64,000 nucleotides of DNA from the IMG/VR virus record IMGVR_UViG_3300011008_002750, positions 32,001 to 96,000 of that record, one strand, 5' to 3'. The stretch's first letter is position 1; the number at the start of each line of letters is the position of its first letter. The stretch is from a virus. Its lineage: Duplodnaviria; Caudoviricetes. Under the pieces are notes generated by a model, which searched no databases, was not told the DNA's origin, and worked only from the letters and a program-made list of their open reading frames with translations. A program made the position numbers and the translations under genes. Of the stretch, positions 7,272 through 47,258 are shown piece after piece.

Positions 7272-10200
7272 TTAGCCATTACGAATTTCTCCAAATATTT
7301 TTTCAGGACTATCGCTAAATTGAACAGTAAGATCTTTATGAGATTCTGACCAAGCAGTAAGAGCAGCAGAAACTGCATTTCCAATAATAGCTGCAAGTTC
7401 TTCTCTATCTTGTTTCTTTTGTTCCTCTTCGCGCTTCTATTCTTCTTCACGTTTATTTTTAGTAAGTGCGTCTTTAACAATATTTCCCATTTTTTCAGCA
7501 CCTTCTACAGCAGCATTAACGCCTTTAGAAATAATATTTCCAGATGTAACAGATTTCATCTAATCATATAAACGTGTTAATCTCATTGATTCTTTCATTG
7601 CACTATTCAATTGATTTACTCCAGCTGCCATATCTTTAAAATTAGATGCAACTGATTGAATTGCTTTAGTTCTTTGTTCTTCTTTAGCAATTAATTCAGC
7701 ATCTAATTGTTTCATTGCAGCAGCTAAATCAACAATTTGTTTTGGCGTGGCTGATAAAAATGGTTTAATATGATTAATACCATCTGCTGTATTTTTCATT
7801 GCCTCTTTAAATACGGCAGAATTTGATTTTGCTGTCCTAAAATTAGTAACATTTAAATATTTTACTATTTCATTTAACCCGTTTGTTAAATTTAATGTAT
7901 TTCCAACAAATTCCGGTAAAAACATTTCCTTTTTAATAATATTTAAATATTTAACACCATCACAAAAATCTTCTAATGTATCCTTAAATTTATCGGCATT
8001 CCAATCTGCTTCTGCTATTGCTTTAGAATGACCGAGGAAATTAAGAATAATATTTAAACCGTTAATTAAATTATTTACATTATTGTCTTTATTAAATACA
8101 ATTTTTTGTAATATATCGATATCTCTAATACCATCAATAAAATCTACCATTGTATCCTTAAATTTATCGGCATTCCAATCTGCTTCTGCTATTGCTTTAG
8201 AATGACCGAGGAAATTAATAATATCAGTTAAAATTGATACGACCGTACTAGCAGCACCCTTTAATTTTGTTTCGTCTATATCTATAACTTTATCTCCGAC
8301 TTGTATTTTTCCAGCAGCTATTTGAATGATATGGCCAAATGCTGCACCAATACCCTATAAAACGGATCCAAGTTCTTCTCCAACAATTGCTAGAATTCCA
8401 GTAGATATAATACCTAATCCTTTTAATCCAGTTCCAAGTTCAGTTAAAAATGTTGAAAATGCACTAGATAAATTAATTGCAGCTTTTTTAAAATCATTTT
8501 CAGGATCTAATTTACGATAACTAATTGGATTTCCATCTTTATCCCATTTATCTGGAACATTCAAAGATGCCATTTTTTGAATAACATCAACAAAATCAGA
8601 TAATGCTCTAATTACATTACCAATACCTCCACTTCTCTTTTTATTTCTTGGAAATAATGTCTTTAAAATTTTCTTAGTACCATCTAAATTTGTTAACGTG
8701 TCAAGGCCTGATGTTAAATTATTAATAAATGTTGTAAATGCAGTAGTAAGGTTGGTAGCAGCGGCAACAAACTCGGTTTCTTTCATTTTACGATAAATAG
8801 GTTTTCCATTTTCATCGTAATGATCTAAAATTTCCATTTTTGCCATTTTTTGAATAACATCAACAAACATACTTAATGCTTCCATTACTGGTTTTAATGC
8901 TTTACCTATGCGTTTAACGTTTTTAGCTTGTTCCTTATTAAATTTCATTAAATTTACAATAATGGTTTTAAGACACCCAAGCATGCTTTTATTTCCTTCA
9001 CCTGGATCAACTAGTTTTTTAACAGCATCATTAATTGCAGTTTGATCTAATTGATTAACTTTATTAAGCAATTCTACAAATAATAACATTGCTCCAGATA
9101 TACTAGCAATTGCAATTGCAATAGATTCTATAGCAGCGAATCCATACCAAAATATTAATGCCTATGGACCTGATAAAAATGCGCCTAATGCAAATATTTC
9201 GGCTACTACACCCATAATCATTGCACCCATCATTACTGTTCCTTTTATTATGCCTTTTAAAGAAATTCCGTCCATCTTCTTTAAATAATCTGCAAATAAA
9301 TTCATTGCAAAAGATAATCCAATAATAGCTAAAACTATTGCACCAACACCTAAAATACCTTTAATTGCATTCTTCTAAAAACTATCACGACTAAGAACCC
9401 ATATCATAGCTATTGCAAATGCAACAATAGTGGCTAACATAATTATACCTTGGATCATATCAGTCCATTTAGTTTTTTTGGCAGTTCTTGTAACTATAAC
9501 AAGAGCCAATGTCATTCCTAAAATTAATAATACAACTTTTCCTAATGATTGTAATCCATCTAAAGATTCTTTTTCAAATTTTTTGCTTCCAAGAACTAAT
9601 ATTGTTAAAATTGCAAATGTCATTACTGCGGTTAACATCATTATTCCTTGCACCATATCAGTCCATTTAGTTTTTTTAGCAACATATATTAACAATGCAA
9701 GAGATAATGTTAATCCTCCAATTAATAATATAATATCTTTTGTTCCTTTTAATCCTTCATTTGCTTCACGTTTAAACCACTTAGAACCGAGCAGTTTTAT
9801 AATTCCAAGTGCAAATATAACAACGCCTAATAATAATCCTGCTCCCCCAGCAAGATCTTTTAAATCATTTGTTTTCCATAATATCACTAATGCAATTAAA
9901 CATAATGATAAGGTTCCAACTAATGTTGCTACAGATAATGCAACTTTAGCTGCTGCTTTTGCTTTTTCCACTCCATTTCTTCCGCCGGCTAATTTATCTA
10001 TTAATTCTTTAAAGAATCCACCAATAGCTGCTCCGATTTTTGGACCAAGAAATACGCCCATCATCCATAATTGCATAATCTATTTTTCTTTGATTTGCAA
10101 TAAAGCTGCCATCATCAATCCAAAATTAACTAAGCGTTCTTTAAATGTTTTGCTTTGAACCTATCTATTAGGAGGAACCTAATTAATAATATCTACCATT

Positions 10201-42985: not shown

Positions 42986-44059
42986 TTATGGAAGTAATTT
43001 AATATAATCATTTAACTATTCAATACATTTATCTAAATCACAAGAAAATATTTCTAAATAATTTAAATTATTCTATTTTGCAATATTTCTTTTATTAACA
43101 TCTCTAATAGTCCATATATTACATGCACAACTATAAAATTTGGTATTTTTTTCTTTCCAATAATTTAATTTATCTATATCTTCCTAATTATTTTCATCAA
43201 ATGGATGATTACCATGCATCCATGTCCCTTGAATTTCAATATATAAATCTAAACTTTTAATATAAAAATCACAATTAAATGGATATACTTCAGATCTATA
43301 TTGATATTCAAAATTATTTGGATAATTTTATTCTAAATATTCTTTAAATTCTTGTTCTATTTTAGATGAATTAATTGTTCCATTTTTAATTTTAGTTTGA
43401 AAAGATTTATGTCTTGCATCTAAAGATATTGCTAACTACCGACATTTTGGAGTATTAAAATATGTAGAAACTCCATATTTTTCAATACATGTTTGTTTTT
43501 GTTTTTCAACAAATTCTGATTTTTGAGATGGATGGTAAACACCATTATTTGCATAACATGTATTATACATTTTCTATTTAATTATTTCAGCTTTTGCCGG
43601 ATTATCTACACCATATTTCTTAATCCATGTTTGTTTTGATTTAATTTTATAATTTAATGTTTTAAATTGCTATTTATTTCCATATATTTTTAAATTTGTA
43701 TCTTCTTTTCTTTTCTTGGTTACATCATCATTTGCTGCACATTTAGGTGAACAGTGCATATAATATCCTTTAGCAAAATTATAATATTTTTGTAATCCTC
43801 CACAGACTGGGCAAATTGGATGAATATCAATATGATGATATATTCTATATATTATTTCACTATACGAATTACTATCATTATAACGTTCATCTAAATATTT
43901 TTTAATATCATTATATTTTTCAAGCCACTAATGAGTAAGTTGATATAAATTTAAAGTAGTTTCATTTTTAACAAAAATTTCAATAATAGTATTATCATTT
44001 ATTTCATCATAAAAATATTCATACTACCTAATTTTTTTATTGTAAATTTTTTGTACCAT
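42986..44059 (-). pseudogene. modular Vsr-like endonuclease A (Zn ribbon + KYG repeats) with in-frame TAA at 43328-43330
   Basis: CPVC..HCSPKC, KQTCIEKYGV repeats, CDFY..YIEIQGTW.HG; TAA aligns with CAA in paralog B. Confidence 0.8.
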
Positions 44060-44200
44060 ATTTGTCAGGGGTTTATTTTTATATAAAATATCCTATATAG
44101 ATACTTATAGGCCCTGACCCCTACTTTCTCTATATAGGATATTTATAAATTTATTAATAAACTATTAATTATAATAATGTCAGGGTTAATAGTTTATTCT
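44060..44200 (-). ncRNA. structured 5' leader of endonuclease A
   Basis: 13-bp and 16-bp perfect stems, GAAA/AAGUA internal loop, 8-nt loop complementary to two CCCUGAC copies. Confidence 0.65.
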
Positions 44201-44221
44201 TTTTATTATTTATTTCAAAAA

Positions 44222-44959
44222 TTATGGAAGTGTATACATATTTGGAACTTTATTCAACTTAGTGAACCATTCTTTACACTACTCAATGTCACGGTTAGCC
44301 TCATCAACTATTCCCGACATTTGAATGGTGATGCCACCAACTAGATTTGTTGAAAATACAGTCATTAGTTTATTTGCCTATAATTTGCAATGTGCAGAAA
44401 TCCATTTTTGAACCCAGACATTATCAAATAATTCTTGCTCTGGAACTTTAACTTTTAACCCGCAGAAAACATTAACTCTCGGATCATGACCAAGAACCAA
44501 TAATTCATGTTGAACATAATTCCATCTATGTTGAATATCTACTAATGTAAATTGTTTAAGCTGATCCCATGCACTCCAAGATATAGTTCTGAATGCAACA
44601 GAATCCATGTTCATTAAAGAACCTAGCCATAAATCAGACATAAATGCTTTATTGAAACCAAAATCAGGATCCATAATTCCAAACATTGCATTTCTATGTT
44701 TCATTTCTTGGAATCTAGTAACAGCAACTACGCAATCAGGGAATGCAATTTTTCTATTTTTTCTGAATTCTGGAGTCCAAAATAATCCTGCCGGAATGAT
44801 AAAGAAATCTTCTTCCGTCGCATCCGGATCAAGTTCTAGTAATTGTTTTAACTCTCTATCTATAATTCTCTCATATGTTGCATCAGGTATATTAATTTGG
44901 ATAGCCCCATCCATTGTTACATCAGCCTTTAACCAATTTTTAAATTCTTCTCTAGTCAT
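44222..44959 (-). CDS. gp13: neck protein gp13-like
   Basis: C-terminal WVQKW..KLQ..NLVGGITIQ..IVDEANRDIE matches the gp13 pattern once TAG=Q. Confidence 0.75.
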
Positions 44960-45009
44960 TATAAAAAACTAATATTTTTATATTTATTTTTGAAATAAAT
45001 ATAATGTAA

Positions 45010-45164
45010 TAAATTATTATTTTCTCCTACAATTAAAACTTAATTTGTTTTAATTTATATAATAATTAAAAATATTAAAGTTCTTTTTTATAGAAAGCAG
45101 GGTAGGAGCTGTAAGTATATAATTAAGAACTTTATTTTATTATAAAAATAAACTCCTACAAATT
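45010..45164 (+). ncRNA. structured 5' leader of endonuclease B
   Basis: Same architecture as leader A with key CUCCUAC/GUAGGAG. Confidence 0.65.
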
Positions 45165-46442
45165 ATGAATGAAAAAGAGTATATAGAAGATTATAATTTA
45201 TTAAACGATGAATATATATTGAGTGTATTTATTAATAATGGTAAATTCCTTATTAGACGATATGATTCATTTTTAAATAAGCATGATGCTATTAAAAAAT
45301 ATATTGAAAATAGATATTCAGATTCTCAATCTATATAGGAAACATTATATAGAATGATTAATAATATTGAAATCCGCCCAATATGTAAAAGTTGTGGTAA
45401 ACCGGTTAGCTTTAATGGTTATAAAGGGGGTTTCTCTATATTTTGTTGTTCAAAATGTGCATCAAATGATCCAGAAGTAAAGCAAAAAGTAATGCAAACG
45501 TCTTTAATAAAATATAATACATTATATCCTAGCTAGAATAAAGAAGTTAAACAAAAATAGTCAAAAACAATAAATAGTAAATCAATTGAATAGAAAAAGT
45601 AGGCAAGTAATAAAGTAAAAAAGACTAAATTATTAAAATATGGTGATGAAAATTATAATAATCATGAAAAAACATCTTAGACCAAATTATTAAAATATGG
45701 TAATGAAAATTATAATAATTCAGAAAAATAGAAATAGACATGCATTGCTAACAATGGAGGTATTGGATTTTAGTCAGAAAAAATAAAAGAAAAATATATT
45801 AAAACTTGTTAGTAGTTATATGGATGTGACGATGGAAGTAAATCTCAAATAGCTATTAATAAATTTAAAACTACATGGAAATCAAAAACAACAGAAGAAG
45901 TTGCAAATATAGTTAAAAAACAACAAAATACATGTTTACTATTATATAATGAAACAAGCTATACTAAAACACTAGAATATCGTAAATTTGTTTCTAATAT
46001 GGTATCATCACAAGAATATTAGGAACATCAATTATATATTAAAAAATTAAGAGGAACAGTTAATTCATCAAAAGTAGAATAGCAATTTAAAGAATATCTA
46101 GAACAAAATTATCCAAATGATTTTGAATATCAATATAGATCAGAATTATATCCATTTAATTGTGATTTTTACATAAAGTCATTAGATTTATATATTGAAA
46201 TAAATGGTTCTTGGACACATGGTGGTCATCCATTTGATGAAAATAATTAGGAAGATATAGATAAATTAAATTTATGGAAATCTAAAAATACATAGTATTT
46301 CAATAATGCTATTAATACATGGACTATTAGAGATGTCAAAAAACGAAATATGTCAAAAGAAAATAATTTAAATTATTTAGAAATATTTACAAAATATGCA
46401 GATGAAGCAATAAAACAATTTAATGAATATATAAAACATTAA
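45165..46442 (+). CDS. modular Vsr-like endonuclease B (intact, 425 aa)
   Basis: CKSC..CCSKC, KTKLLKYG repeats; C-terminal domain nearly identical to A; open with TAG=Q. Confidence 0.8.
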
Positions 46443-46454
46443 ATTGTTTTATTT

Positions 46455-47258
46455 TTATATTTTAGTGAACCAATCTCTTTGAGAAACTTTTCCATTTTTA
46501 ATATCAATAACTACATTTAAGCAACCATTAGTACTAATAGTTGATTTAAATTTTTGCCCATTAAAATAAAAACTATTTCCAATTAACTATCCAATATAGG
46601 TTCCGTCTCCTAATGATTCTATTGGTTTTCCATTTTCTTCTTCATCTTTGATTCTTTGAGATTCTTTTTCTTCTAATTCTCTTTTTAATTTCATTTCACC
46701 AATATAAACATCTTTGAAGTATTTAGAGGCTTCTTCAAAATCATCAAATAAAACGTCACCTTCTTCAGGAGAACAATCCATCATTTTTCCATTTATATTG
46801 ACAACATATTGTGCAGATTGAGTGTTAGAAACAAATTTCATATCATCATATTTAGTTAAAAATATCTCATGAGGGCCATCTTCCATTAAAATATAATATA
46901 TTGTTGCAACTTTATTAATTCCATCTTTCCATTTTCCAATATATCCATCATCTAAATTAGATTCTCCACCAAAATATTTTACCATCTATAATTTAGCATA
47001 ATGATTTTTGTCTCTATATTTTTGGACAACTAGAGGATCTGTCATATATAATGGATGCTCACCGTATGTTCCTTCACATGGCATAAAACTTCCACCATAA
47101 CAGAATTCAACATCACCTGACAAATCTTTGTCTTCCTCTTCTATTGGCAAATTATTCATTCCATGAAACAAAAGATTAGACATCTTTCTAGCAGATGATT
47201 GCATTGGACCACCTGGACCAACTATTTTGTCTTTAACAACTTTATAAATATATCTCAT
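46455..47258 (-). CDS. hypothetical protein
   Basis: Two track ORFs joined across TAGs to TAA 46455. Confidence 0.7.

What the first reader, a model, noticed from the sequence alone, without database searches (positions are those of the whole stretch)
44060..45164. Covarying three-copy-key leader RNA upstream of both modular endonuclease genes
Seen: both leaders start after TTTTGAAATAAATA and share one design. A long stem carries a GAAA/AAGUA internal loop and is capped by a short helix with an 8-nt loop. Seven loop bases are complementary to two identical sites: one in the loop of an upstream hairpin and one 5 nt before the ATG. In A (minus strand) the loop is GUCAGGG (44112-44118) with CCCUGAC at 44179-44185 and 44064-44070. 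In B the loop is GUAGGAG (45102-45108) with CUCCUAC at 45024-45030 and 45153-45159. Three of seven key positions differ and are compensated in both partners; stem sequences differ while pairing is kept. Known: AGUA/GAA is the loop-E (sarcin-ricin-type) motif. Inference: a two-state RNA switch (upstream kissing loop versus pseudoknot over the start region) or an RNA partner of the nuclease with an element-specific key. I do not recognise it as a described family.
Basis: partly seen in the sequence, partly recalled or inferred. Interest (0 to 1): 0.92.

Follow-up and report, generated by a model that had tools for sequence, protein, structure and literature searches.

The report
Three-site lock-and-key leader of phage endonucleases
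Selfish DNA-cutting-enzyme genes in a Lak-like giant gut phage carry a folded RNA leader absent from Rfam, in which one hairpin loop can pair either with an upstream hairpin loop or with the ribosome landing site, using a different matched 7-base key in each copy, so it most likely throttles production of the nuclease.

Summary
Both leaders exist at the stated coordinates. A third copy lies in the same genome outside the window. Seven more were found in related Lak-like megaphage contigs. All ten have an AATAAATA promoter-like motif, a hairpin HP1 or upstream strand showing site 1, and a long hairpin HP2. HP2 carries an invariant GAA/AGUA (loop-E type) internal loop and a key loop. A second copy of site 1 ends 3-6 nt before the AUG.

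There are nine distinct keys. Loop to site 1 is 70/70 Watson-Crick. Loop to site 2 is 68/70 plus one G.U. HP2 pairs 96.9% of cells, with compensatory changes at 19/19 pairs.

Three relatives keep the kissing pair and loop E but lack site 2. Rfam and the open literature hold no match. This scan's earlier notes report kissing-loop leaders before homing endonucleases in other phage genomes, none alike in sequence.

Best reading (about 0.55): a sense-strand, cis-acting mRNA leader, part of the mobile endonuclease cassette. Its loop has two mutually exclusive partners. Pairing at the AUG blocks initiation, and HP1 acts as a built-in decoy.

The structure is shown. The sign, the trigger and the transcript ends are inferred.

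The parts
44207..44220 (-). Leader A: TTTTGAAATAAATA, 5' edge of cassette A, with the promoter-like core AAATAAATA; starts 1 nt after the adaptor gene's stop codon
   Evidence: Exact match. An AATAAATA-type motif lies 51-85 nt upstream of HP2 in 12/12 leaders. AAATAAATA ranks near the top of 36 same-composition 9-mers for lying 5-60 nt upstream of ORFs. A closely similar AAATAAATAATAAAAGAATA string lies just upstream of the adaptor gene's ATG in the HEG-free relative.
44156..44198 (-). Leader A hairpin HP1; its loop displays site 1, CCCUGAC (44179-44185)
   Evidence: MFE and centroid fold; site 1 lies in the HP1 loop in 11/12 leaders.
44087..44143 (-). Leader A hairpin HP2: 15-bp lower stem, internal loop GAAA (44125-44128) / AAGUA (44102-44106), 5-bp cap, 8-nt loop with key GUCAGGG (44112-44118)
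   Evidence: Fold; CM R2 gives 59.8 bits; covariation counts.
44071..44086 (-). Leader A spacer, U-rich then A-rich (consensus UUAUUUU ... UAUAAAAAUAAAC)
   Evidence: Conserved in the three-site leaders.
44064..44070 (-). Leader A site 2, CCCUGAC, 4 nt before the ATG (44057-44059)
43328..44059 (-). Endonuclease gene A (243 aa with TAG=Q; DUF7487, phrog_3339). It ends at an in-frame TAA, and the nuclease-domain coding sequence continues to about 42996.
44988..45001 (+). Leader B: TTTTGAAATAAATA, back to back with the adaptor gene's own AAATAAATA motif on the other strand (44979-44987)
45012..45067 (+). Leader B HP1 (outer stem plus inner hairpin); site 1 CUCCUAC (45024-45030) lies in its large internal loop
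45078..45132 (+). Leader B HP2: lower stem, GAAA (45093-45096) / AAGUA (45113-45117), 4-bp cap, 8-nt loop with key GUAGGAG (45102-45108)
   Evidence: CM R2 gives 80.1 bits.
45153..45159 (+). Leader B site 2, CUCCUAC, 5 nt before the ATG (45165)
45165..46442 (+). Endonuclease gene B (425 aa, 15 in-frame TAG=Q codons; DUF7487 repeats, phrog_3339 'homing endonuclease')

Best explanation
The element is a sense-strand, cis-acting structured 5' leader of the endonuclease mRNA, and it travels as part of the mobile endonuclease cassette.

Order of parts: a promoter-like AAATAAATA motif; hairpin HP1, which shows a G+C-rich heptamer (site 1) in its loop; hairpin HP2, a long A+U-rich stem stiffened by a loop-E/bulged-G-type GAA/AGUA internal loop and capped by a short helix whose 8-10 nt loop is the complement of site 1; a U-rich then A-rich spacer; and a second copy of the heptamer (site 2) that ends 3-6 nt before the AUG.

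The HP2 loop can pair with only one partner at a time. Pairing with site 2 forms a pseudoknot of about -10 to -14 kcal/mol across the ribosome landing site. In a Bacteroidota-type system without Shine-Dalgarno help, that should block initiation. Kissing with the HP1 loop is made first during transcription and is equally or more stable. It keeps the HP2 loop busy and leaves the start region free.

The leader therefore ties nuclease translation to the state or integrity of its own 5' part and keeps output low. The kissing pair with loop E is the older core, because it occurs without site 2 in relatives. Site 2 is an added coupling to translation.

Shown: the three sites, both hairpins, their covariation, the strand, and the link to the cassette. 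Inferred: promoter use, the repressive sign, and the trigger (loss or occupation of HP1 by processing, a protein or a shorter transcript).
For: Ten three-site leaders carry nine distinct keys. Loop to site 1 is 70/70 Watson-Crick over the 7-nt core. Loop to site 2 is 68/70 plus one G.U and one mismatch. Site 2 always ends 3-6 nt before the ATG.

In the cross-matrix, loops match only their own sites or near-identical keys. Copies inside one genome do not cross-match.

HP2: 96.9% of cells pair, 19/19 pairs show double-sided changes, 0/500 shuffles reach this, and slid controls give 35-47%. An independent MAFFT plus RNAalifold run gives the same shape, with 16/18 compensated pairs.

G.U pairs (for example 6/12 at the cap-closing pair) and much weaker reverse-strand CM scores point to the sense strand.

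Site 1 lies in the HP1 loop in 11/12 leaders.

Without the pseudoknot the start region is mostly unpaired (P 0.57-0.89), so there is no other inhibitory fold that a pseudoknot could relieve. Duplex energies are -11 to -22 kcal/mol for site 1 and -10 to -14 for site 2.

All CM hits precede genes of this endonuclease family.

Cassette A starts 1 nt after the neighbouring gene's stop codon, with the leader motif. A related genome has the same neighbouring gene with no endonuclease on either side.

Precedent: T-even homing-endonuclease genes are translationally held by RNA structures over the ribosome-binding site (PMC2988022).
Against: The promoter, the RNA ends and even co-transcription of all three sites are therefore inferred.

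In C, H and I the site-1 duplex is far stronger than the site-2 duplex. Site 2 would seldom win there unless HP1 is removed, and no trigger is identified.

Three relatives (G1-G3) keep HP1, the kissing pair and loop E without site 2. The core therefore has some other, unknown function.

The conserved U-rich run just after HP2 could mean attenuation rather than, or besides, translational control.

A known plasmid system uses a similar loop-to-RBS pseudoknot as an activator.
Confidence: 0.55

Rival explanations
1. Same structure, opposite sign. The loop-to-site-2 pseudoknot activates initiation, as in ColIb-P9 repZ, and the HP1 loop is a built-in inhibitor that competes for the loop.
For: The geometry is the same as in the IncI1/IncB system. 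There a hairpin loop pairs next to the RBS, and a competing kissing partner blocks that pseudoknot (PMC8053102, citing Asano & Mizobuchi 1998).
Against: That system needs an inhibitory structure over the RBS and a leader peptide to open it. Here the start region is predicted to be open without the pseudoknot. The sequence of leader A shows no AUG before the start codon. B has only an AUG followed directly by UAA. The other leaders were not checked for this.
Confidence: 0.15
2. The promoter, HP1, HP2 and U-run form an attenuator or a separate small RNA of about 130-150 nt. Most transcripts end after HP2. The released RNA, or the leader of another molecule, pairs in trans with site 2 of read-through mRNAs. 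Distinct keys prevent cross-talk between copies.
For: A conserved U-rich run follows HP2 directly in all members. Keys of copies within one genome do not cross-match.
Against: The simple terminator scan does not flag HP2. HP2 is a long A+U-rich stem with an internal loop, unlike the phage's own compact terminator beside the empty site. In such an RNA the loop would be masked by its own HP1. Non-matching keys also arise by plain divergence.
Confidence: 0.12
3. The three heptamers are DNA operator sites bound by the endonuclease itself (I-TevI-type autorepression). They vary because each paralogue has a different DNA specificity.
For: I-TevI represses its own promoter through an operator that resembles its homing site (PMC2988022). 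The proteins have variable DUF7487 repeat arrays.
Against: A protein-site model does not explain several features: the inverted copy always sits in the apical loop of a covarying hairpin, site 1 sits in another hairpin loop, site 2 tolerates a G.U-compatible C-to-U change (leader I), and the stems carry strand-specific G.U pairs. The sites do not overlap the promoter-like motif.
Confidence: 0.05
4. The leader is an RNA cofactor or guide of the nuclease, or a ribozyme, and the key addresses a DNA or RNA target.
For: Structured RNAs upstream of nuclease genes can be guides (known for other nuclease families; from my own knowledge, not tested here). The key is specific to each element.
Against: The key is absent from the HEG-free insertion sites in the related genome G001. 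It is otherwise rare in the genome. Both partners of the loop lie inside the same leader. No ribozyme family matches at E<=10.
Confidence: 0.04

Closest known systems
RBS-sequestering leader structures of T-even phage homing-endonuclease genes (I-TevI, I-TevII, I-TevIII, segB, Aeh1 mobE)
   Same: An RNA structure directly upstream of a homing-endonuclease ORF pairs with the ribosome landing region. It lies behind a late-type promoter and is thought to keep a risky nuclease low (PMC2988022).
   Different: In T-even phages a single hairpin stem buries a Shine-Dalgarno sequence, and a late promoter inside the hairpin gives escape transcripts. Here there is no Shine-Dalgarno sequence. The partner is a hairpin loop (a pseudoknot), a cis decoy copy competes for it, a loop-E motif is conserved, and no conserved internal promoter was found.
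ColIb-P9 / IncB plasmid rep control: pseudoknot formation versus antisense Inc RNA at one hairpin loop
   Same: One hairpin loop has two alternative partners: a site next to the RBS (pseudoknot) and the loop of another hairpin (kissing). The competition sets translation.
   Different: In the plasmids the competitor is a trans antisense RNA, the pseudoknot activates, and a leader peptide is required. Here the competitor is in cis, leaders A and B hold no leader ORF, and repression is the more likely sign.
Loop E / sarcin-ricin (bulged-G) motif
   Same: The signature, 5'-AGUA-3' opposite 5'-GAA-3' between two Watson-Crick helices, is invariant in 13/13 leaders while the flanking bases vary.
   Different: Only the sequence signature could be tested. 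Geometry and any protein partner are unknown. The context (an mRNA leader hairpin under a kissing loop) is not one of the classical rRNA, 5S or viroid sites.
Kissing-loop leaders before homing-endonuclease genes noted earlier in this scan in other phage genomes
   Same: A promoter is followed by two hairpins whose 7-8 nt loops pair with a different matched sequence in each copy, in front of homing-endonuclease genes, with no Rfam match (AI notes, unchecked by me).
   Different: No look-alike sequence turned up. This family adds the invariant loop-E motif and, in ten members, the exact third copy at the start codon.

Membership tests
Any Rfam 15 family | Covariance-model match | tested here: not met
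   No match at E<=10 in window 43000-46500. No match at E<=1 in nine loci holding other members.
Loop E / bulged-G (sarcin-ricin type) motif | AGUA opposite GAA, flanked by Watson-Crick pairs on both sides | tested here: met
   GAA and AGUA are invariant in 12/12 (CM alignment) and AGTA in 13/13 (MAFFT). The flanking helices covary.
Loop E / bulged-G (sarcin-ricin type) motif | Non-canonical geometry (sheared G.A, trans U.A with a bulged G) | not testable with these tools
   Needs chemical probing or a solved structure.
T-even type RBS-sequestering HEG leader | The start or RBS region pairs with upstream leader sequence | tested here: met
   Site 2, 3-6 nt before the ATG, is complementary to the HP2 loop in 10/10 three-site leaders. 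The pairing is a loop pseudoknot, not a hairpin stem.
T-even type RBS-sequestering HEG leader | A late or middle promoter inside the structure, so that shorter transcripts escape | tested here: inconclusive
   The only conserved promoter-like motif lies upstream of HP1 in 12/12. TATAAT-like strings in the HP1-HP2 linker are not conserved and are expected in 85% A+T sequence. There are no transcript data.
T-even type RBS-sequestering HEG leader | A sequestered Shine-Dalgarno sequence | tested here: not met
   Site 2 is C-rich (CCCUGAC, CUCCUAC and so on) and the region before the ATG is A-rich, with no GGAGG-like element.
ColIb-P9/IncB pseudoknot-versus-antisense control | Hairpin loop complementary to a site next to the RBS | tested here: met
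ColIb-P9/IncB pseudoknot-versus-antisense control | Trans antisense RNA competitor and a leader peptide that opens an inhibitory fold | tested here: not met
   The competitor is the cis HP1 loop. Leader A has no upstream AUG and B only an AUG-UAA; the other leaders were not checked. The start region is predicted to be open.
Intrinsic terminator / attenuator | Stable hairpin followed at once by a U-run | tested here: inconclusive
   A U-rich run (consensus UUAUUUU) follows HP2 in all members. However, the consensus scan does not call it, and the stem is long, A+U-rich and interrupted.
Free-standing homing-endonuclease cassette (context of the leader) | Endonuclease family match, and presence or absence polymorphism between conserved neighbouring genes | tested here: met
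   DUF7487 and phrog_3339 'homing endonuclease'. G001 has the adaptor gene (79% identical) with no endonuclease on either side. Cassette A is bounded by a 10-bp direct repeat.

The most novel reading that the evidence does not exclude
The matched keys are not only an internal fold but an addressing system that works between molecules. Leader RNAs, or terminated leader fragments, of one endonuclease copy would recognise only transcripts of the same copy. This would give each selfish element its own copy-number or dosage sensing, in the manner of plasmid antisense control. Alternatively, the loop-E hairpin recruits the nuclease or a host factor in a key-specific way.
Probability: 0.1. Interest if true: 0.85.

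Novelty: new variant of a known kind. Interest (0 to 1): 0.62.

Why it matters
The finding extends RNA-level control of homing endonucleases from T-even phages to stop-codon-recoded Lak-like megaphages of Bacteroidota, where no Shine-Dalgarno sequence exists to hide.

It shows a different solution: one loop, two identical partners, and a conserved loop-E module.

It defines a candidate new RNA family with unusually clean three-way covariation. That makes its tertiary pairings directly testable by compensatory mutants.

It also offers a natural set of at least nine mutually non-matching 7-nt lock-and-key pairs on one scaffold, which could serve as orthogonal riboregulator parts.

Finally, it marks cassette boundaries and a likely late-promoter motif in a phage group without any transcription data.

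Tried and rejected
Steps that gave nothing:
- A profile of the N-terminal domain for locus finding: no stretch was conserved enough.
- Locus scans with the proteins of leaders F and E: nothing new.
- A PDB sequence search with protein B: only weak zinc-ribbon look-alikes.
- CM R2 on the published Lak-A1 and Lak-B5 genomes: no significant hit.

Readings considered and rejected:
- Target-site duplication or a MITE. Site 1 lies inside the HP1 loop, with both arms belonging to the cassette, and two-site relatives lack site 2.
- The key as a guide to the homing site. It is absent from the empty sites in G001.
- Structure on the other strand or in duplex DNA. G.U pairs and weak reverse-strand scores argue against it.
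- An internal promoter of the AAATAAATA type between HP1 and HP2. It is not conserved.
- Chance. The heptamers are rare genome-wide.

Full report
**Observation.** The stated motifs are at the stated places. The plus-strand CCCTGAC at 44112-44118 is the complement of loop GUCAGGG on the minus strand. Its two minus-strand partners lie at 44179-44185 and 44064-44070. For B, CTCCTAC lies at 45024-45030 and 45153-45159 and loop GTAGGAG at 45102-45108. These G+C-rich heptamers are rare in the 27.5% G+C record, with 0.8-2 expected per strand. Most of their occurrences lie inside the leaders. TTTTGAAATAAATA occurs exactly only at the head of each leader. Single-sequence folds give the long stem, the GAAA/AAGUA internal loop and a short cap with an 8-nt loop. 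Two small corrections apply. Site 2 of A is 4 nt, not 5, before the ATG. Site 1 of B sits in a large internal loop rather than a simple hairpin loop.

**Context.** Reading TAG as Gln opens all frames. Gene B (45165-46442, 425 aa, 15 TAG codons) and gene A (43328-44059) are paralogues. Each has a zinc-ribbon N-terminal domain and DUF7487 repeats, and both match phrog_3339 'homing endonuclease'. Between them lies a head-tail adaptor-like gene. The nearest GenBank phages are the Prevotella Lak megaphages, at about 50% amino-acid identity on that gene. The record is a 120.8-kb piece, estimated at 24% of a genome.

A related 380-kb genome (G001) has the adaptor gene at 79% identity with no endonuclease on either side. 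In the window, cassette A begins 1 nt after the adaptor stop codon with the leader motif. It ends with a duplicate of the adaptor's last 10 nt, ACTTCCATAA, at 42986-42995 and 44222-44231. The leader is therefore part of the mobile cassette.

**More copies.** A third paralogue in the same record, outside the window (G000:C1 about 7690-7896), has the same design with an unrelated key. Its three elements are GGUAACGGAC, GUCCGUUACC and GUAACGGA, the last followed by AUU and the AUG. A covariance model of HP2 and protein-guided loci gave seven more three-site leaders. Four are in a 263-kb relative, G002. Three are in metagenome or viral contigs.

Site sequences of the ten members:

| Member | Site sequence |
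|---|---|
| A | CCCUGAC |
| B | CUCCUAC |
| C | GUAACGGA |
| D | CCUCUAC |
| E | UCUCUGC |
| F | CCACGAC |
| H | UACCACCAC |
| I | CCACCAC |
| J | GCACGAC |
| K | CCGCGAA |

Over the 7-nt core, loop to site 1 is Watson-Crick in 70/70 positions. Loop to site 2 is Watson-Crick in 68/70, with one G.U (I) and one mismatch (H). Site 2 ends 3-6 nt before the ATG in all ten. A cross-matrix shows each loop matching only its own sites or those of a near-identical key (F with J, H with I). Copies within one genome do not cross-match.

**HP2.** On the model-based alignment of 12 members, 96.9% of cells pair, and all 19 pairs show changes on both sides. No shuffle out of 500 reaches this, and sliding the partner by 1-3 columns drops pairing to 35-47%. 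That alignment is fitted to the model, so I repeated the test with plain MAFFT plus RNAalifold on 13 members. It predicts the same lower stem, internal loop and cap, with 16/18 compensated pairs. GAA on the 5' strand and AGUA on the 3' strand never vary, while their neighbours do (A or C; A, G or U). This is the loop-E/bulged-G signature. G.U pairs (6/12 at the cap-closing pair) and much weaker reverse-strand scores place the structure on the sense strand.

**HP1.** Site 1 lies in the 8-17 nt loop of an upstream hairpin in 11/12 leaders. In leader I it is single-stranded.

**Variants.** Three relatives (G1-G3; loci L030/L075, L071/L074/L077, L076/L081) keep HP1, the kissing pair and loop E. 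Their kissing pair shows a compensated change: GUAAGGCG with CGCCUUAC against UAGGGCG with CGCCCUA. They lack site 2, and the ATG follows HP2 closely. More distant endonuclease relatives have unrelated leaders in which a hairpin loop again matches an upstream site (L029/L073, L031/L079, L032, L036/L099, L095). The kissing pair thus looks like the older core, and site 2 a later addition.

**Promoter-like motif.** An AATAAATA-type motif lies 51-85 nt upstream of HP2 in 12/12 leaders. AAATAAATA and its one-base shifts rank at the top of the 36 same-composition 9-mers for lying 5-60 nt upstream of ORFs of 100 aa or more. For AAATAAATA itself this holds for 19 of 45 occurrences, mostly at 19-34 nt. 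A closely similar AAATAAATAATAAAAGAATA string precedes the adaptor gene in the HEG-free genome. I read it as a promoter of structural or late genes, which fits the many TAG codons in the endonuclease genes. This is inference.

**Mechanism.** An 8-nt loop cannot hold two partners, so the two pairings exclude each other. In the nested ensemble the region -18 to +12 around the AUG is mostly unpaired in the three-site leaders (0.57-0.89). There is therefore no other inhibitory fold that a pseudoknot could relieve. A G+C-rich helix of 7-8 bp (-10 to -14 kcal/mol) at -12 to -4 should hinder 30S binding. That hindrance rests on established knowledge of structure-sensitive initiation without a Shine-Dalgarno sequence in Bacteroidota. 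Site 1 is transcribed first and pairs as well or better (-11 to -22 kcal/mol). I therefore favour HP1 as a cis decoy that keeps the start open, with loss or occupation of HP1 closing it.

The weak points are these:
- No trigger is known.
- Site 1 dominates strongly in C, H and I.
- The two-site relatives show the core has another role.
- The conserved U-run after HP2 may mean partial termination.
- No transcript data could be obtained.

**Comparison.** Rfam has no match. The open-access library holds no paper describing such a leader. The closest known systems are two. One is the set of RBS-sequestering hairpins of T-even endonuclease genes (PMC2988022). The other is the ColIb-P9/IncB competition between a pseudoknot and an antisense kissing partner at one loop (PMC8053102). 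Neither has a cis decoy copy or the loop-E module. Earlier notes of this scan report kissing-loop leaders before homing endonucleases in several other phage genomes. They share the design but not the sequence, and I did not check them.

**Verdict.** The feature is real and strongly supported as an RNA structure. It is a new variant of a known kind, namely cis RNA control of a homing endonuclease. Its function is plausible but untested.

Noticed in passing
window 42996-43327 and 43328-44059 (-): Endonuclease gene A stops at an in-frame TAA exactly where paralogue B has Gln (…EYLE*NYPN… against …EYLEQNYPN…). The nuclease-domain coding sequence continues in frame. A is therefore probably a recent pseudogene or a split gene, yet its leader is intact.
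   Followed up: partly
window 42986-42995 and 44222-44231 (-): Cassette A is bounded by the 10-bp direct repeat ACTTCCATAA, the last codons plus stop of the adaptor gene. The original terminator-like hairpin follows the second copy.
   Followed up: yes
window 44979-45001: Two AAATAAATA motifs sit back to back on opposite strands, one facing the adaptor gene and one facing endonuclease B. This looks like a divergent promoter pair.
   Followed up: partly
G000:C1 7690-9231 (outside the window; locus L026): This is the third endonuclease paralogue with its leader. Site 1 pairs with the loop over 14 nt and invades the cap helix, so the plain MFE fold prefers the long-range helix. The protein match is split into several pieces.
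   Followed up: partly
L156 (G001:C1:22280-26014): HEG-free arrangement of the same neighbourhood. The adaptor gene is followed by a compact G+C-containing terminator hairpin shared with a convergent gene. An 86-aa ORF present here has no obvious counterpart in the window.
   Followed up: partly
L036/L099 and L095: Distant relatives of the endonuclease have unrelated leaders in which a hairpin loop is again complementary to an upstream site (AUUACGGCU with AGCCGUAAU; UUGCUAG with CUAGCAA). In L036/L099 that hairpin looks like an intrinsic terminator.
   Followed up: no
L058 (G002:C1:224392-227457, minus strand): The endonuclease behind leader D has two tandem copies of the N-terminal zinc-ribbon module and a different C-terminal part. 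The same leader type thus serves proteins with reshuffled domains.
   Followed up: no
MK250016.1 and MK250024.1 (Lak-A1, Lak-B5): The HP2 model finds nothing significant in these two published Lak genomes. The family seems confined to a sub-lineage found in IMG/VR and metagenome contigs.
   Followed up: partly
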